DNA from: a virus
Taxonomy: Duplodnaviria > Heunggongvirae > Uroviricota > Caudoviricetes
Direction: 5' to 3' (one strand)
Virus record (IMG/VR): IMGVR_UViG_3300039313_000010
Length of the DNA: 4,795 nt
The notes beneath the pieces are model-generated. The model worked only from the letters and a program-made list of their open reading frames with translations. It was not told the DNA's origin and searched no databases. The number at the start of each line of letters is the position of its first letter. Positions within the stretch are counted from its first letter, which is position 1. This document shows, piece after piece, positions 550-4,795 of this stretch. The position numbers and the translations under genes are program-made.

Positions 550-939
550 TCAGGCGGCTGCACCCGCCGTTTTCTCGTACTTACTGATAGTGATCTCGAC
601 CTTCCCTTCCGGGATAACCGGTCCCCACTCCACCAGCATTCTTTTCACCTGACTGTCGTCTTCCCACACACCCGCGTGGGTCAGGGCGTCAAACAGCGCC
701 TTGTTATAGTTGTCCAGATCGCGGATCCGGTTATCCGGTGGAAACAACACGATCTCCACTGCAGCAGGTGCCGACGTTGGTTTCGGCAGACGACGTAACT
801 GCTCAACTATTGCTGCGCACGCCGCGCTCTGGAATTTTCGCCCCGCCGTGCTTATCAGGCTCTTACCAGCAAACGCCCCTTTGTTGGGGTGTCGCCAGTA
901 CGTGTTCACGCTGGGCGGAAAAGGCAGAATAAGCTTCAT
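550..939 (-). CDS. rusA: Crossover junction endodeoxyribonuclease RusA (Holliday junction resolvase)
   Basis: 129-aa ORF with the motifs LPFPPSVNTYWRH, IRDLDNYNKALFDALTHAGVWEDDSQV and GKVEITI, which match E. coli RusA as I remember it. Its ATG (939-937) overlaps the upstream gene's TGA (938-936) as ATGA. Position among nin-like genes of a lambdoid prophage is typical. Confidence 0.9.
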   Translation of the reverse strand: MKLILPFPPSVNTYWRHPNKGAFAGKSLISTAGRKFQSAACAAIVEQLRRLPKPTSAPAAVEIVLFPPDNRIRDLDNYNKALFDALTHAGVWEDDSQVKRMLVEWGPVIPEGKVEITISKYEKTAGAAA

Positions 940-1262
940 ACTTTCAGGCCCCTCTCATGTAACCAGTGGGCTGCACGCAGCCTGGCGTTTTCCTCACCGG
1001 CAAGCAGTGAGCGGATAATCCCGACCGCCTCGCTGTCGTCGTCCTTCACCGCGGTATGAAGCGTTATCCCCCGGGCCACGCCACGCTTTATCGTGATGAC
1101 GCCTTTTTTCTCCAGAGCACGAAGATGCTCCACCGCTGCATTCACCGAACGGTATCCCAGCATGGTTGCCACCTCCTGATTGGTTGGTGGGAAGCCACGT
1201 TCTTTCTGATAAGAAATCAGCATATCCAGCACCTGCTGCTGGCATTGAGTTAACGTCGTCAT
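936..1262 (-). CDS. Stand-alone LexA-like N-terminal DNA-binding domain protein, 108 aa, no S24 peptidase domain
   Basis: MTTLTQCQQQVLDMLISYQKERGFPPTNQEVATMLGYRSVNAAVEHLRALEKKGVITIKRGVARGITL aligns along its length with the E. coli LexA N-terminal domain ([66 protein letters not shown], from memory). The ORF stops about 40 aa after the winged helix; no Ala-Gly cleavage site or Ser/Lys catalytic region follows. Start chosen at ATG 1262-1260, which overlaps the upstream stop as TAATG; the track's in-frame ATG at 1295 is the alternative. Confidence 0.75.
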   Translation of the reverse strand: MTTLTQCQQQVLDMLISYQKERGFPPTNQEVATMLGYRSVNAAVEHLRALEKKGVITIKRGVARGITLHTAVKDDDSEAVGIIRSLLAGEENARLRAAHWLHERGLKV

Positions 1263-1744
1263 TAAGCCCCCACGTAATTCCCTGACAGATACCACTCTTC
1301 ACCCGATGCAGCGCGCTTGCTGCTTTTCCGTAAGCACCGCTCACGACGCGCCAGAAAATTGTTTCGTTCTGGCTGGGAGTGGCTTTCACGGAATGCCGCC
1401 ATCCACACGGTTGCAGCACGACGAAATAAGCCCCTGGACTCCAGTTCTTCCGCCTGGCGGGCTAGGCACAAAATCACCCGCGGGTCGTTAGTGCCGACAT
1501 AGAAATTGCGCACAGGTCTGGTTTCACGAACTGGTTGTGGTTCCTGCGCTCTCTCAGTCAGGCGCGGGAAATGTCTGCGTGTATCTCCTTCACAACGGTG
1601 AGCCACACGCCCACTCTGACGTAACTTGCTTGCTGACTGCAGAACTCGCTGCCGTGAGTAACCAGCAAAAGCATCCGCAATGTCTCCGGAAGTACACCCC
1701 GGATGGGCTTCAATGAATTTCTGAACGTCATTTAACAGACTCAT
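1262..1744 (-). CDS. Hypothetical protein with N-terminal winged-helix-like region and C-terminal PerC-like motif
   Basis: ORF 1262..1750 in the track. Preferred start is ATG 1744-1742 (MSLLNDVQ...), preceded by AGGGGG with a 5-nt spacer; the GTG at 1750 overlapping the upstream TGA is the alternative. C-terminal segment LESRGLFRRAATVWMAAFRESHSQPERNNFLARRERCL resembles the PerC/Pch signature (G-x-W-R-R-A-A-x-x-W ... R-R-x-x-C) as I recall it. Family call is from memory. Confidence 0.6.
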   Translation of the reverse strand: MSLLNDVQKFIEAHPGCTSGDIADAFAGYSRQRVLQSASKLRQSGRVAHRCEGDTRRHFPRLTERAQEPQPVRETRPVRNFYVGTNDPRVILCLARQAEELESRGLFRRAATVWMAAFRESHSQPERNNFLARRERCLRKSSKRAASGEEWYLSGNYVGA

Positions 1745-1746
1745 GA

Positions 1747-2688
1747 TCACCCCCTGAATCCTGCCGGGATCTGGCTGTAGTCCACGTTGTCGTAACTGGC
1801 TTTGAAGTACGGGTCTTCACGTTTTTCTGTGTGCGTGCTGACGGACGGCGATAAGCGCAGGGAAAGCTCATCCCATTTTTCCCGCAACTTCGACGGGCTG
1901 AGCACGTTACGGCACCAGAACGGATCGCGGCTGACGCGGCTGTACATCTCGCAGATTTGTTTGTGAGTACGACCATCCTGCACACACATCAGGCGAATTT
2001 CGTTTGCCCAGGCTGTCCAGTTAGGTTCTTTGGGACGAACCACCTCGCCGTCACATTCGGCGGCCTGCTCGTACAGGGCGATGATTTTTTTCCAGAGCCA
2101 CTGTGCGCAGGTCAAATCATCCTGCGTTCCCCACTGGCGCTTTATAGGGCTGAATACAACCGCATCAGGATGGCGAGTTAAAAACTCCTGTTCAGCCGTC
2201 TGCGTGTCCGGTTGCGAAGCGTCCGGACGAGAAGGTTTTTTATCTGACGGATCATGTTTTGATTTTACTGACGGATCCCCGCCAGATTCTGACGGGTGAA
2301 AACCCGCTTTTTTGCCAGATTTCGACGCATCAAATTTTGACGGGTCAGATTTTGATGCGTCAGATTTTGACGGGTCAGAATCTGACAGTTGAGAAAATGC
2401 CGCTGCCTGAAGCTTCGCAACGTTAAGCTGATAAACATTCGACGCATTGCGGTTACCCTGGCGACGCGCCCTACGCGTTAACCAGCCTTCTGCTTCCAGC
2501 CGTGCGATAGCCGTTCTGACGGTACTCATCCCCGCGCCAATCTGGCGGGCAATGGTTTCAATTGATGGCCAGCACACACCTTCGTCATTACTGAAATCAG
2601 CCAGGCGGGCCATAATTGCCACGCTGGATAATTTCATGCCTGATGCAGCGCAACCATCCCATACATAGCCGGTTAATTTAGTGCTCAT
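1747..2688 (-). CDS. Phage replication initiation protein (lambda O-like): N-terminal HTH domain, iteron-encoded repeat linker, C-terminal domain
   Basis: 313-aa ORF with RBS GAGG 6 nt before ATG 2688. N-terminal segment (SSVAIMARLADFSNDEGVCWPSIETIARQIGAGMSTVRTAIARLEAEGWL) is HTH-like. The central peptide repeat SDPSK/SDASK/SDPSK/FDASK is encoded by 15-bp tandem DNA repeats, the same layout as the lambda O gene carrying ori-lambda iterons. Sits where O sits relative to cro and cII. Confidence 0.85.
   Translation of the reverse strand: MSTKLTGYVWDGCAASGMKLSSVAIMARLADFSNDEGVCWPSIETIARQIGAGMSTVRTAIARLEAEGWLTRRARRQGNRNASNVYQLNVAKLQAAAFSQLSDSDPSKSDASKSDPSKFDASKSGKKAGFHPSESGGDPSVKSKHDPSDKKPSRPDASQPDTQTAEQEFLTRHPDAVVFSPIKRQWGTQDDLTCAQWLWKKIIALYEQAAECDGEVVRPKEPNWTAWANEIRLMCVQDGRTHKQICEMYSRVSRDPFWCRNVLSPSKLREKWDELSLRLSPSVSTHTEKREDPYFKASYDNVDYSQIPAGFRG
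2242..2391. repeat. Iteron array, candidate phage replication origin inside the initiator gene
   Basis: Five exactly phased 15-bp units at 2317, 2332, 2347, 2362 and 2377 (agatttcgacgcatc / aaattttgacgggtc / agattttgatgcgtc / agattttgacgggtc / agaatctgacagttg), plus three degenerate copies at 2242-2298 containing tctgacgg or actgacgg. Each unit has a short GTCA...TGAC dyad. Moderately AT-rich flank at 2231-2270. Confidence 0.65.
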
Positions 2689-3618: not shown

Positions 3619-3882
3619 TTACGCAGCTGAACCGCTAACTTTTGAATAGCACTCAGGTAATCCATCATTTGGATTGGGGTAAATATCAGGACGCAGTTCA
3701 TGAGGGGTCACGGACCAGTTTCCCAACTCACAAAGTTGTAAAACCCGTTCTGACGGGACTTGATTGTTAATTACCCAATTAGCGACGGATTGAGTGGACT
3801 TAAAACCAAAGTGACGGGCTACTTCAGATAAAGATTTTCCCGCAGCTTTTACTGCTTTCTCTGTGTAGTTTTGAGATGACAT
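3619..3882 (-). CDS. Cro-like HTH DNA-binding protein (Cro/YdaS-type), first gene of the rightward-equivalent early operon
   Basis: 87-aa ORF with an HTH segment (KSLSEVARHFGFKSTQSVANWV) followed by VPSERVLQLCELGNWSVTPHELRPDIY. RBS GGAGAAAGG lies just upstream of ATG 3882. Divergent from the repressor gene. Confidence 0.8.
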   Translation of the reverse strand: MSSQNYTEKAVKAAGKSLSEVARHFGFKSTQSVANWVINNQVPSERVLQLCELGNWSVTPHELRPDIYPNPNDGLPECYSKVSGSAA

Positions 3883-3890
3883 ACCTTTCT

Positions 3891-3907
3891 CCTCTGAAAT
3901 TCAGAGG
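3891..3907. promoter_or_regulatory. Perfect 17-bp palindrome CCTCTGA-AAT-TCAGAGG overlapping the cro-like RBS
   Basis: 7-bp perfect inverted arms with a 3-bp spacer, read directly. Sequence differs from the other three sites, so it may bind a different protein or form an RNA hairpin in the cro-like 5' UTR. Confidence 0.4.
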
Positions 3908-3912
3908 GATGA

Positions 3913-3929
3913 TGCTACTTAAAATAGCA
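3913..3929. promoter_or_regulatory. Operator-like 17-bp dyad TGCTAC-TTAAA-ATAGCA
   Basis: 5-bp inverted arms TGCTA/TAGCA around cttaaaa. Shares CTAC at positions 3-6 and TAG at 13-15 with the sites at 3936 and 3981. Contains a -10-like hexamer. Confidence 0.45.
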
Positions 3930-3935
3930 GAATAC

Positions 3936-3952
3936 AACTACTTAAAATAGAA
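3936..3952. promoter_or_regulatory. Operator-like 17-bp site AACTACTTAAAATAGAA, weaker dyad
   Basis: Its 13-bp core CTACTTAAAATAG (3938-3950) is an exact direct repeat of 3915-3927, 23 bp away. Immediately precedes ATG 3953. Confidence 0.45.
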
Positions 3953-4693
3953 ATGACTAGCGTATGTGATGCGAGTAACCTTCTACCTATGGTAGAAGAA
4001 CAGAAGTATCCAGATTTCGCCAAGAGACTAAACGAGCTAATGACAAACAAGGGAATTTCTGTCACCCAACTCAAAAGTCTTGTGGGCGTTACATATGAAA
4101 TGGCGCGGCGATACACAATCGGCGCTGCGAAGCCTCGTGCCTCTGTCATGAATAAACTTGCATTGGCTCTGGGGGTATCAGCTTCATATTTAGAATATGG
4201 TGTTGGCGAGAGAGAAGGATGTAAGGAAATGGCAAGCATCCCCAATCCAACAAAACCCGATGTATACAGGATAGAAGTTTTGGATCTTAGCGTTAGCGCA
4301 GGACCTGGAACCTATATGCTTTCAGACTATGTTGATGTGCTCTACGCCATTGAGTTCACAACAGAGCATGCCCGTTCTCTTTTCGGTAATCGTTCTCAAG
4401 ATGATATTAAAGTTATGACTGTAAATGGCGACAGCATGTCCCCTACTCTAGTTTCCGGAGATCGACTGTTTGTCGACATTTCTGTTCGCAACTTCCAAAC
4501 TGATGGTGTTTACTCTTTCGTTTATGGTAAGACGTTCCACGTTAAACGTCTACAAATGCAAGGCAACAAACTCGCCGTTCTTTCGGATAATCCAGCCTAT
4601 GAGAAATGGTACATTGATGAGAAGTCCCAAGATCAACTTTATGTTATGGGCAAAGCATTGATACACGAATCAATTAAATACAACCGGCTTTAG
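3953..4693 (+). CDS. Phage cI-like repressor: N-terminal XRE-type HTH, C-terminal S24 (LexA/CI-type) self-cleaving peptidase domain
   Basis: 246-aa ORF. HTH segment FAKRLNELMTNKGISVTQLKSLVGVTYEMARRY. Candidate Ala-Gly cleavage site in LSVSAGPG. Catalytic Ser motif in MTVNGDSMSPTLVSGDRLFVD and Lys motif in FHVKRLQMQGNKLAVL. No RBS before ATG 3953, which fits a leaderless PRM-type transcript; ATG 3989 (MVEEQKYPDF...) is the alternative start. Confidence 0.9.
   Translation: MTSVCDASNLLPMVEEQKYPDFAKRLNELMTNKGISVTQLKSLVGVTYEMARRYTIGAAKPRASVMNKLALALGVSASYLEYGVGEREGCKEMASIPNPTKPDVYRIEVLDLSVSAGPGTYMLSDYVDVLYAIEFTTEHARSLFGNRSQDDIKVMTVNGDSMSPTLVSGDRLFVDISVRNFQTDGVYSFVYGKTFHVKRLQMQGNKLAVLSDNPAYEKWYIDEKSQDQLYVMGKALIHESIKYNRL
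3981..3997. promoter_or_regulatory. Perfect 17-bp palindrome TTCTACC-TAT-GGTAGAA centred on the in-frame ATG 3989 of the repressor gene
   Basis: 7-bp perfect inverted arms, read directly. Shares the CTAC...TAG half-sites with the two intergenic sites. Its centre is 45 bp from the centre of the 3936-3952 site. Confidence 0.4.
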
Positions 4694-4795
4694 TTCTTCG
4701 TTTAGACTATAGGGAAGGTGCGAACAAGTTCCTGATATGAGATCATCATATTCATCCGGAGCGCATCCCAGAGGGACATCATGAGCCATCAACTC

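What the first reader, a model, noticed from the sequence alone, without database searches (positions are those of the whole stretch)
3891..3997. Four 17-bp dyad sites at 22, 23 and 45 bp spacing, including one centred on a repressor start codon
Centres fall at 3899, 3921, 3944 and 3989. Three sites share CTAC-N6/7-TAG half-sites (3913-3929, 3936-3952, 3981-3997). The fourth (3891-3907, CCTCTGA-AAT-TCAGAGG) is a perfect palindrome of different sequence that overlaps the cro-like RBS. This resembles a lambda OR1-3 operator set, with two additions: a perfect site inside the repressor coding start (possible autoregulation or roadblock) and a second specificity at the cro side (possible Cro-like site or translational hairpin).
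Basis: seen in the sequence. Interest (0 to 1): 0.6.

Follow-up and report, generated by a model that had tools for sequence, protein, structure and literature searches.

The report
Prophage switch operators plus cro hairpin
This is the on/off control region of an HK022-like E. coli prophage: three of the four symmetric sites are ordinary repressor binding sites, one of them on the repressor's own start codon as in phage HK022, and the fourth looks like an RNA hairpin that hides the cro ribosome-binding site, not a protein site.

Summary
In detail: all four dyads are at the stated coordinates and are far beyond chance.

**Operators.** Sites A (3915-3927), B (3938-3950) and C (3983-3995) are operators of one family, CTAC-N5-GTAG.
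- They are conserved in 38 sequence variants of the region.
- Pairs 23 bp apart recur as OL-like sites 1.5-2.7 kb beyond cI.
- Their half-site changes with the repressor's recognition helix across related immunity groups.
- A site centred on the A of the cI ATG is already annotated as oR3 in phage HK022, whose CI is 42% identical. It is therefore not an addition.
- A -10-like hexamer lies exactly 7 nt upstream of that ATG in all variants. This suggests a leaderless PRM transcript, with C acting as the autorepression site.

**Fourth dyad (3891-3907).** It is not a second operator.
- Its arms change between relatives that keep the same Cro recognition helix.
- Complementarity is kept through compensatory and G·U changes that mostly pair only in cro-sense RNA.
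- It is therefore an anti-Shine-Dalgarno hairpin.
- Its 5' arm lies between the predicted PR -10 and the predicted start. PR transcripts probably lack it, so it would silence only read-through transcripts, as in IS10. This last step is inferred; no start sites were mapped.

The parts
3619..3882 (-). cro-like gene (87 aa, YdaS/Cro family)
   Evidence: Pfam PF15943, E = 2.2e-11. Nearest solved structure is the Xylella prophage Cro, 3bd1, E = 1.9e-5. The helix-turn-helix is invariant across the close relatives.
3889..3895 (-). cro Shine-Dalgarno sequence (AGAGGAG); GGAG ends 6 nt before the ATG
   Evidence: Read directly from the sequence. GGAG is invariant in 28 variants.
3891..3907 (-). Fourth dyad: anti-SD/SD hairpin in cro-sense RNA (5' arm 3907-3901, 3' arm 3897-3891)
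   Evidence: Perfect inverted repeat. Folds at -10.7 kcal/mol with the SD paired. In 24 variants the SD is always in a stem, mean -9.5 kcal/mol, mean z -3.0. In fixed register 84% of cells pair against 73.5% in shuffles, 26 cells have double changes against 9.6, and 4 of 7 pairs change on both sides. There is only one copy in the 25-kb prophage.
3909..3914 (-). Predicted PR -10 (CATCAT; CATTAT or TATTAT in relatives)
   Evidence: Conserved block directly next to site A in all variants. It is at the same position relative to the spacer operator as the annotated HK022 pR -10. It is a consensus match only; the start site is not mapped. The predicted start is G3902/A3901.
3915..3927 (.). Operator A (CTACTTAAAATAG), inside the PR spacer
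   Evidence: The CTAC and TAG ends are invariant and the central 5 bp vary in 38 variants. CTAC-N5-GTAG is the commonest form.
3932..3937 (-). Predicted PR -35 (TTGTAT), 17-bp spacer
   Evidence: TTG is invariant and abuts site B in all variants. The PL-side pairs in relatives have the same design.
3938..3950 (.). Operator B (CTACTTAAAATAG), weaker type, abuts the PR -35 and the predicted PRM -35
   Evidence: Lies 23 bp from A in 33 of 38 variants and 22 bp in 5. Its right half AAAATAG, together with the AAATGAC that follows it, is invariant.
3953..3958 (+). Predicted PRM -35 (ATGACT); also an upstream in-frame ATG
   Evidence: ATGAC(T/G) in 38 of 38 variants and ATGACA in three isolated phages. 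The spacer to the -10 is exactly 17 bp in all 38.
3976..3981 (+). Predicted PRM -10 (TAACCT; TAATCT in most relatives)
   Evidence: 37 of 38 variants read TAANCT and one reads TACTCT. It is followed by exactly 7 nt and then the ATG in 38 of 38. HK022 (TATAGT) and a second immunity group (TATTAT) have the same geometry; a third group has GATATT followed by 6 nt.
3983..3995 (.). Operator C (CTACCTATGGTAG; perfect dyad 3980-3998), centred on A3989 of the cI ATG; equivalent of HK022 oR3
   Evidence: Nearly invariant in 38 variants. Related immunity groups have their own half-site at the same place: TGAACTCATGGTTCA and TTAACTAATGGTTAA. HK022 oR3 is annotated on the cI ATG.
3989..4693 (+). cI repressor gene (234 aa; HTH_3 plus Peptidase_S24); alternative start at 3953 gives 246 aa
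   Evidence: Pfam. 42% identical to HK022 CI over the full length. PGAP start at 3989.

Best explanation
The region 3891-3997 is the right-operator control region of a lambdoid prophage. Its repressor is a relative of phage HK022 CI with a different DNA specificity.

**Operators**
- A, B and C are CI operators with consensus CTAC-N5-GTAG. Cro probably uses them too.
- A lies in the spacer of the leftward cro promoter PR. B abuts the PR -35. CI bound cooperatively to this 23-bp pair would shut PR.
- The same pair design recurs at PL in relatives.
- C is the counterpart of HK022 oR3. It is centred on the A of the cI ATG, between a conserved -10-like hexamer and the start codon.
- The maintenance transcript therefore most likely starts at or next to the ATG, leaderless as in lambda. 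High CI occupancy of C would then block its own promoter.

**Fourth dyad**
- It works as RNA. Its promoter-proximal arm is an anti-Shine-Dalgarno sequence that pairs with the cro ribosome-binding site.
- That arm fills the 6-7 nt between the predicted PR -10 and the predicted start. PR-initiated cro mRNA should therefore lack it and be translatable.
- Any cro-sense transcript that enters from upstream would carry both arms and be translationally silent.

**What is shown and what is inferred**
- Shown: the motifs, their conservation, the OL pairs, the covariation with the repressor helix, and the hairpin covariation.
- Inferred: protein binding, both transcription starts, leaderless translation, and the insulating role.

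**Sub-confidences**
- A, B and C are operators: about 0.85.
- The fourth dyad is an RNA hairpin and not a protein site: about 0.75.
- It acts only on read-through transcripts: about 0.4.
For: **Operators**
- The motif is enriched in the window and in the full prophage.
- The CTAC and (G/A)TAG ends are conserved while the centres vary, in 38 variants.
- An OL-like site lies 1.5-2.7 kb downstream of the cI ATG in every locus that extends far enough. It is a pair 23 bp apart where the second site is well enough conserved to match.
- All CTAC loci share the CI helix GV(T/S)YEM(A/V)RRYT. GAAC-type and TAAC-type loci have different helices.
- In each of the three types, a site of the cognate type is centred on the A of the ATG.
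- HK022 oR1-3, pR and oL are annotated in GenBank, with oR3 on the cI ATG. HK022 CI is 42% identical.

**PRM**
- ATGACN, 17 bp, a -10-like hexamer (TAANCT in 37 of 38), 7 nt, then ATG is the layout in all 38 variants and in three isolated phages.
- There is no Shine-Dalgarno sequence before either ATG.
- RNA starting at 3989 is unstructured. RNA starting at 3953 buries the AUG in a hairpin.

**Hairpin**
- 24 variants all pair the SD, mean -9.5 kcal/mol, mean z -3.0.
- Compensatory series seen: CCTCT/AGAGG, CCTAT/ATAGG, CCTGTGAA/TTCACAGG, CCTTGG/CCAAGG.
- G·U pairs make the cro-sense fold 4-8 kcal/mol more stable than the opposite sense in several lineages.
- Covariation score 0.334 against 0.173 in shuffles, with 0 of 500 shuffles as high. 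Sliding the partner drops pairing from 84% to 29-66%.
- RNA starting at the predicted PR start (G3902) folds at only -0.6 kcal/mol, with the SD free.
Against: - No binding data and no mapped transcription start exist for this phage.
- The simple promoter scan does not call the proposed PR or PRM in the window. Both are 7 of 12 matches. Its only hit is a different plus-strand pair, TTAAAA-18-TAAAAT at 3919-3948.
- B would be centred near -45 of the proposed PRM, against -42 for lambda OR2. Activation by CI is therefore doubtful.
- No source of upstream cro-sense transcription was found. Cargo genes between cI and OL are all on the cI strand, and no promoter-like site was found on the minus strand of cI.
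- The hairpin is missing from three isolated phages with the same operators, so it is dispensable for the switch.
- The sense asymmetry is not uniform: 7 of 24 variants fold better in the cI sense.
- The loci compared are related prophages, so shuffle-based significance is inflated.
Confidence: 0.7

Rival explanations
1. The fourth dyad is in the native PR transcript. The start would lie upstream of the predicted one, or a second upstream promoter would exist, for example one using the invariant TATTTT inside site B. The hairpin would then be a constitutive attenuator or sensor of Cro translation that sets the Cro level during lytic growth.
For: The hairpin is conserved with covariation and always includes the SD. 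No upstream source of read-through was identified, which is awkward for an insulator. A -10-like TATTTT is invariant on the cro strand inside site B.
Against: The conserved TTGNNN-17-CA(T/C)TAT promoter ends 1-2 nt before the 5' arm in every variant. HK022 pR is annotated at the equivalent position. The first purine after a pyrimidine run falls 7-8 nt after the -10, which is the usual start distance by established knowledge of sigma-70 start selection. The TATTTT candidate has no conserved -35 or TG extension.
Confidence: 0.25
2. The fourth dyad is a DNA operator of a second specificity, for Cro or another phage regulator. It would lie across PR +1 at the position HK022 uses for oR1 and give Cro autoregulation.
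For: It is a perfect 17-bp dyad 22 bp from site A. It starts 1 nt after the predicted PR -10, exactly where HK022 oR1 sits. It co-occurs with a Cro family different from HK022 Cro.
Against: The arm sequences differ widely: CCTCT, CCTAT, CCTGT, CCTTGG, CCCTTTTG, CTCTTGG. This holds among relatives with an unchanged Cro recognition helix QSVANW, even within the subgroup with identical FKSVQSVANWI. Several variants keep pairing only through G·U, which means nothing for a DNA dyad. There is no second copy anywhere in the prophage, and none at OL. The operators that stay constant alongside the constant Cro helix are the CTAC sites.
Confidence: 0.08
3. The maintenance promoter is the plus-strand pair TTAAAA-18-TAAAAT (3919-3948), with a start near 3955. 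cI would then be translated from a leadered mRNA, from ATG 3953 or 3989. C would act as an RNA hairpin or roadblock and not as a +1 operator.
For: It is the only site passing the promoter scan. The -10 part AAAAT is invariant. The frame from ATG 3953 is open in all 12 independent spacer lineages, against stops in 5 of 12 in each other frame; joint chance is about 0.009.
Against: Its -35 lies in the variable centre of site A, and the first T of its -10 is not conserved. It leaves unexplained the invariant 17-bp spacing and the hexamer 7 nt before the ATG (TAANCT in 37 of 38 variants). Other immunity groups with unrelated sequence also place a -10-like hexamer 6-7 nt before the ATG. A start near 3955 would bury AUG 3989 in a stable hairpin with no SD.
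Confidence: 0.2
4. The dyads are chance palindromes in AT-rich intergenic DNA with no function.
For: None beyond the low G+C content of the region.
Against: See the shuffle controls, conservation over 38 variants, recurrence at OL and covariation.
Confidence: 0.01

Closest known systems
Phage HK022 right operator (oR1, oR2, oR3) and CI repressor
   Same: The repressor is homologous: 42% identity over the full length, with an HTH plus S24 peptidase architecture. Operators are 13-15-bp dyads of the form xxAC-N5-GTxx. One operator lies in the PR spacer, directly followed by a CAT(A/T)AT -10. One operator is centred exactly on the A of the cI ATG, with a -10-like hexamer 7 nt upstream. An OL pair about 23-24 bp apart lies beyond cI.
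   Different: The half-site is CTAC, not GAAC, and the recognition helix differs. Spacings are 23 and 45 bp, against 24 and 33. The cooperative pair is shifted one position upstream relative to PR: one site in the spacer and one upstream of the -35, where HK022 has one at +1 and one in the spacer. The HK022 oR1 position is taken by the anti-SD hairpin. Cro belongs to an unrelated family. OL is 1.5-2.7 kb away with cargo genes in between, against about 0.7 kb in HK022.
Phage lambda OR1-3 with PR/PRM and the leaderless cI mRNA (established knowledge, not tested here)
   Same: It has divergent cro and cI, three related dyads, adjacent sites about 23 bp apart, a promoter-distal site placed to autorepress the maintenance promoter, and a second operator cluster at PL. 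No SD precedes the cI ATG, and a -10-like hexamer lies at the right distance for a start at the A of the AUG.
   Different: The autorepression site is centred on +1 and the start codon, not on the promoter spacer. B sits about 3 bp further from the predicted start than lambda OR2, so positive control is uncertain. The operator and protein sequences are unrelated to lambda's.
Fold-back inhibition in IS10 and IS50: read-through transcripts carry an inverted repeat that hides the transposase start signals, while transcripts from the element's own promoter start inside the repeat and lack the 5' half. Recalled from Davis, Simons and Kleckner 1985, not verified here. An SD-sequestering 5'UTR hairpin in IS200 is described in PMC4513863.
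   Same: An inverted repeat has the ribosome-binding site as its 3' arm. Its 5' arm lies upstream of the predicted native start. RNA with both arms folds at -10.7 kcal/mol, and RNA from the predicted start folds at -0.6 kcal/mol.
   Different: The context is a phage lysis-lysogeny switch gene and not a transposase. The 5' arm doubles as the promoter discriminator. Neither the start site nor any read-through transcript has been shown.
e14 prophage (E. coli K-12) ymfK/ymfT control region
   Same: It has a divergent S24 repressor and a small Cro of the same broad family, followed by ymfL. A dyad overlaps the cro-side ribosome-binding site.
   Different: In e14 that dyad is an ordinary operator copy, TGTAC-N7-GTACA, with the SD in its centre. 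It has the same half-sites as the other e14 operator. Here the dyad has no operator half-sites, and the SD is in an arm.

Membership tests
Lambdoid CI/Cro operator set (OR type) | Divergent genes for an HTH plus S24-peptidase repressor and a small HTH Cro | tested here: met
   Pfam HTH_3 plus Peptidase_S24 on the plus strand. YdaS/Cro family on the minus strand, with a match to PDB 3bd1 Cro.
Lambdoid CI/Cro operator set (OR type) | Several dyad sites of one consensus between the genes, about two helical turns apart | tested here: met
   A, B and C share CTAC-N6-TAG. A and B are 23 bp apart. Enrichment: 0 of 200 shuffles reach the observed count.
Lambdoid CI/Cro operator set (OR type) | A second cluster of the same sites (OL) at the far side of the repressor gene, on the leftward early promoter | tested here: met
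   Not visible in the window, because IS5 begins about 16 bp after cI. It is present in every complete relative, often as a 23-bp pair with a TTGATT -35 between the sites.
Lambdoid CI/Cro operator set (OR type) | Operator sequence changes together with the repressor's recognition helix between immunity types | tested here: met
   CTAC, GAAC and TAAC half-sites go with three different helix sequences.
Lambdoid CI/Cro operator set (OR type) | Sites overlap functional divergent promoters | tested here: inconclusive
   Conserved -35-like and -10-like hexamers flank the sites. They fall below the scan threshold in the window, and no start is mapped.
Lambdoid CI/Cro operator set (OR type) | Repressor and Cro bind the sites | not testable with these tools
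   Needs EMSA or footprinting.
HK022-type oR3 (operator on the cI start codon) | Operator of the cognate type centred on the A of the cI ATG, in a phage with an HK022-related CI | tested here: met
   The centre is 3989, the A of the ATG. HK022 oR3 lies at 487-501 of locus L084 with the cI CDS starting at 494. CI is 42% identical.
Leaderless cI mRNA from PRM (lambda type) | Transcript start coincides with the A of the AUG | not testable with these tools
   Only geometry is available: the -10-like hexamer is followed by exactly 7 nt and then ATG in 38 of 38 variants, and there is no SD.
SD-sequestering hairpin acting on read-through transcripts (IS10/IS50 fold-back type) | Inverted repeat whose 3' arm holds the SD, maintained by compensatory change | tested here: met
   
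SD-sequestering hairpin acting on read-through transcripts (IS10/IS50 fold-back type) | The native promoter starts inside or after the 5' arm | tested here: inconclusive
   The predicted -10 ends 1-2 nt before the 5' arm in all 28 variants. The start itself is inferred from the usual -10-to-start distance.
SD-sequestering hairpin acting on read-through transcripts (IS10/IS50 fold-back type) | Read-through transcripts exist and are poorly translated | not testable with these tools
   No source of read-through was found by sequence.
Cro-specific operator (second DNA specificity) | Sequence conserved wherever the recognition helix is conserved | tested here: not met
   The arms vary freely under a constant helix. 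The dyad is absent from three phages with the same Cro family.
Intrinsic terminator | G+C-rich hairpin followed by a T run | tested here: not met
   No terminator-like site in 3780-4100 on either strand.

The most novel reading that the evidence does not exclude
Both divergent promoters of this switch may start transcription inside a palindrome, so that only transcripts from the proper promoter are translated.

- PR transcripts would lose the anti-SD arm and expose the cro ribosome-binding site.
- PRM transcripts would begin at the AUG in the centre of operator C and be read as leaderless mRNA.
- Any transcript entering from outside would fold both start regions shut.
- The upstream ATG at 3953 has a 12-codon frame that is kept open although its amino acids are not conserved. 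It would then give a second, extended CI from long establishment-type transcripts, by translating through the hairpin.
Probability: 0.2. Interest if true: 0.6.

Novelty: new variant of a known kind. Interest (0 to 1): 0.4.

Why it matters
The operator set itself is ordinary. It adds a new DNA specificity (CTAC-N5-GTAG) to the HK022 branch of lambdoid repressors. It also gives a clean natural series of three half-sites matched to three recognition helices, with the same site on the start codon. That series could serve studies of how repressor specificity evolves.

The more interesting point is the cro hairpin. If its 5' arm really lies upstream of the PR start, a phage switch gene is protected from stray transcription by the trick known from insertion sequences. 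This would bear on how prophages stay silent when embedded in transcribed chromosomes.

The open upstream frame raises a testable question: is the repressor made in two forms, from maintenance and from establishment transcripts?

Tried and rejected
- **LexA box in the fourth dyad.** CTG-N5-CAG is too short for CTGT-N8-ACAG, although the prophage encodes a protein that has only a LexA DNA-binding domain. Rejected by inspection.
- **Intrinsic terminator at either perfect palindrome.** There is no T run.
- **Known RNA family.** Rfam at E up to 1 finds nothing in the region.
- **Second copy of the fourth dyad, for example at OL.** None in 25 kb; the only other hit, with one mismatch, lies in unrelated flanking chromosome.
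- **A small plus-strand ORF.** It would use the right arm as an SD, start at ATG 3909 and stop at TAG 3948-3950, 2 nt before ATG 3953. Relatives have an early stop, no ATG, or a 22-bp A-B spacing that breaks the frame. Rejected.
- **A sigma-70 promoter upstream on the cro strand that would put the anti-SD arm into RNA.** No conserved -35/-10 pair was found, and none in the cI antisense strand.
- **Cargo genes between cI and OL as a source of cro-sense read-through.** They are all on the cI strand.
- **e14 as a model with public start-site data.** Its RBS-overlapping dyad is an ordinary operator, so it is not comparable.
- **Literature.** The HK022 papers by Carlson and Little and by Cam et al. 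are not held. No paper in the library contains the operator sequences in a relevant context.
- **Species-representative genome scan.** It gave only 2 loci. The viral-contig scans were the productive ones.
Full report
**Setting**

The window is the early region of a lambdoid E. coli prophage.
- On the minus strand lie RusA, a LexA-domain protein, a PerC-like protein, a replication initiator, a CII/CP76-like protein (YmfL) and a small Cro of the YdaS family (3619-3882).
- On the plus strand lies an HTH plus S24-peptidase repressor.
- The same DNA, at 99.9% identity, covers at least 80% of the query in 205 complete E. coli genomes. In IHE3034 it belongs to a prophage next to tRNA-Arg and intD.
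- In IHE3034, PGAP starts the repressor at the ATG equivalent to window 3989.
- The window ends in IS5, which begins about 16 bp after the cI stop. The left operator of this copy therefore cannot be seen in the window.

**The observation**

The four dyads are exactly as described.
- CTAC-N6-TAG occurs at three sites, against 0.18 matches expected. No shuffle of 200 reaches the observed count.
- The two perfect inverted repeats, at 3891-3907 and 3980-3998, are the only ones in the 4795-bp window with arms of at least 7 nt and loops of at most 5 nt.

**Three of the sites are operators of one family**

I collected about 150 related loci from viral contigs, using the repressor and then Cro as queries. 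They contain 38 distinct versions of the control region.
- In all 38, the CTAC and (G/A)TAG ends of site A are kept while its central five bases vary.
- Site B is a weaker version, C(T/A)AC...ATAG. It lies 23 bp from A in 33 versions and 22 bp in 5.
- Site C is nearly invariant.

- In the complete IHE3034 prophage, the only other CTAC-N6-TAG match in 25 kb is a perfect CTACTTTAAGTAG, 2.2 kb beyond the cI ATG. A degenerate partner lies 23 bp away, with TTGATT between the two.
- Every relative long enough has such a site 1.5-2.7 kb downstream, several as clear 23-bp pairs.
- The PL-side and PR-side arrangements have the same design: weak site, TTGNNN, 4 nt, strong 13-mer, CANNAT.

**The specificity tracks the protein**

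- All CTAC loci, including three isolated phages (Providencia PSTCR8lys and PSTRCR_117lys, and Escherichia Phi06_2987 S), share the helix GV(T/S)YEM(A/V)RRYT.
- Relatives with a nearly identical C-terminal domain but a different N-terminal domain have other half-sites: TGAAC-N5-GTTCA or TTAAC-N5-GTTAA.
- In each type, one site of the cognate kind is centred on the A of the repressor ATG: CTACCTATGGTAG, GAACTCATGGTTC and TAACTAATGGTTA.
- This parallel change shows that the start-codon palindrome is first of all an operator.

**This is already known from HK022**

- HK022 CI is 42% identical to the window protein over its whole length.
- GenBank X16093 annotates oR1, the pR -10, oR2, the pR -35 and oR3. 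oR3 spans 487-501 of locus L084, where the cI CDS starts at 494. The HK75 record repeats this.
- HK022 operators are TGAAC-N5-GTTCA.
- The site on the repressor start codon is therefore the HK022 oR3 arrangement and not a new addition.
- HK022 CI is reported to bind adjacent operators cooperatively and to loop OL to OR (PMC8053113, citing Carlson and Little 1993). I could not read the original papers.

**Promoters (inferred)**

*PR, on the cro strand.*
- The window reads TTGTAT, 17 bp, CATCAT. Relatives read TTGATT or TTGCAT with CATTAT or TATTAT. Site A fills the spacer and B abuts the -35.
- This matches the annotated HK022 pR, where oR2 is in the spacer and is followed by CATAAT.

*PRM, on the cI strand.*
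- All 38 variants read ATGAC(T/G), exactly 17 bp, a -10-like hexamer (TAANCT in 37, TACTCT in one), exactly 7 nt, then ATG. The three isolated phages read ATGACA, 17 bp, TA(A/G)NCT, 7 nt, ATG.
- HK022 (TATAGT, 7 nt, ATG) and the second immunity group (TATTAT, 7 nt, ATG) have the same geometry with unrelated sequence. The third group has GATATT followed by 6 nt.
- Neither candidate ATG has a Shine-Dalgarno sequence.
- The simplest reading is a maintenance transcript that starts at or next to A3989, leaderless as lambda cI mRNA is known to be. C would then cover about -9 to +10 and shut the promoter when occupied.
- The promoter scan does not call these weak hexamers. It calls only TTAAAA-18-TAAAAT at 3919-3948. 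Its -35 lies in the variable centre of A, so I rank it second.

**The fourth dyad is RNA, not a protein site**

In the close relatives its outer arms look conserved, but the left arm is simply the complement of the cro SD. The wider set decides the matter.
- The sequence after the -10 changes from CCCTCTGA...TCAGAGGAG to TCCTATGA...TCATAGGAG, TCCTGTGAA...TTCACAGGAG, CCTTGG...CCAAGGAG, CCTTCTG...CAGGAGG, CTCTTGG...CCAGGAG and CCCTTTTG...TAGGAGGG.
- The arms always remain complementary and the SD is always in the 3' arm.
- All 24 variants folded put the SD in a stem, with mean -9.5 kcal/mol and mean z -3.0.
- On a fixed-register alignment, which understates the case because some lineages pair in a shifted register, 84.2% of cells pair against 73.5% in shuffles. 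Twenty-six cells carry changes on both sides against 9.6. Sliding the partner drops pairing to 29-66%.
- Several lineages keep pairing only through G·U pairs, which exist only in the cro-sense RNA. There the sense fold is 4-8 kcal/mol more stable than the antisense fold. This trend is 16 to 7 among the variants, not unanimous.
- Cro's recognition helix, QSVANW, stays constant across all these changes, and so do the CTAC operators. Cro therefore most likely reads the CTAC sites, and the fourth dyad is not a sequence-specific protein target.
- The three isolated phages with the same operators have no such hairpin, folding at 0 to -0.9 kcal/mol. It is an accessory of one prophage clade.

**How the hairpin may work**

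- In every variant the 5' arm begins 0-2 nt after the predicted -10. The first purine after the pyrimidine run lies 7-8 nt after the -10, which is the usual start distance.
- If PR starts there (G3902 in the window), its mRNA lacks the anti-SD arm and folds at only -0.6 kcal/mol with a free SD. RNA that includes the arm folds at -10.7 kcal/mol.
- This is the layout known from IS10 and IS50, where only read-through transcripts carry both halves of a repeat that hides the translation start. That comparison rests on my recollection of the IS10/IS50 literature. PMC4513863 describes a related SD-sequestering hairpin in IS200.
- I therefore favour a role in silencing cro on transcripts that enter from upstream.
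- The weak point is that I found no source of such transcripts. Cargo genes between cI and OL are all co-oriented with cI, and no antisense promoter was detected.
- If the real start is upstream of 3908, the hairpin is instead a built-in attenuator of Cro translation. Only 5' end mapping can decide.

**An unexplained extra**

- The -35-like ATGACT contains an ATG that is in frame with cI, 12 codons upstream.
- The amino acids of this stretch are not conserved.
- None of 12 independent spacer lineages has an in-frame stop. Five of 12 have one in each of the other frames. The joint chance of all 12 being open is about 0.009.
- On long cI-sense transcripts AUG 3989 is buried in the operator-C hairpin. 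The upstream AUG sits in an A-rich open stretch.
- A second, extended CI made from establishment-type transcripts is therefore possible. I could not test this.

**Verdict**

- The operator reading is right for three sites.
- The start-codon site is a known HK022 feature.
- The fourth dyad is best read as an anti-SD hairpin.
- The region is a new specificity and a rearranged layout within a known kind of switch. It carries one moderately interesting and testable twist.

Noticed in passing
window 3953-3988: The 12-codon frame from the upstream ATG into cI is open in all 12 independent spacer lineages. Each of the other two frames has stops in 5 of 12. Joint chance is about 0.009. The amino acids are not conserved. 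Gene callers split between 234-aa and 246-aa forms.
   Followed up: partly
window 4709-4795: The end of an IS5 element (100% identical to insH-bearing IS5 copies) begins about 16 bp after the cI stop. It cuts this prophage copy off from the cargo genes and the OL region seen in relatives.
   Followed up: partly
window 3915-3927 and 3909-3914: This copy, and many identical ones, carries the weaker ATAG end at site A and CATCAT as the PR -10. Most relatives have GTAG and CATTAT. Both the operator and the promoter look slightly degraded here.
   Followed up: no
window about 3820-3832 (inside cro): An operator-like CTACTTCAGATAA lies in the cro helix-turn-helix coding region. Several relatives have a full CTAC-N5-ATAG there, about 95 bp from site A. 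It could be a coding coincidence or an extra operator like the HK022 OFR site.
   Followed up: no
window 2316-2379: A 15-bp unit is repeated 4.3 times (consensus CAGATTTTGACGGGT) inside the replication-initiator gene, where lambdoid phages keep their origin iterons. It also produces a low-complexity DPSK/DASK run in the protein.
   Followed up: no
L001 13265-14341 and equivalent intervals in L012, L023, L034, L036, L043, L046, L048, L049, L052, L053: The interval between cI and OL carries different cargo genes in different relatives: ParA-like, small two-gene modules, a lipoprotein-like ORF. All are on the cI strand, like rexAB in lambda.
   Followed up: partly
window 3989-3997 and the equivalent positions in L059, L002, L084: Codons 2-3 of the repressor are dictated by the right half of the operator: GTAGAA (Val-Glu), GTTCAG or GTTCAA (Val-Gln), and GTTAAG (Val-Lys) in the three immunity types.
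   Followed up: partly
L161 1540-1625 (E. coli K-12 e14): e14 has TGTAC-N7-GTACA operators. One of them holds the croE (ymfT) Shine-Dalgarno sequence in its central spacer.
   Followed up: no
window 936-1295: A 119-aa protein consists only of a LexA DNA-binding domain, with no peptidase domain. It is encoded between the PerC-like gene and rusA.
   Followed up: no
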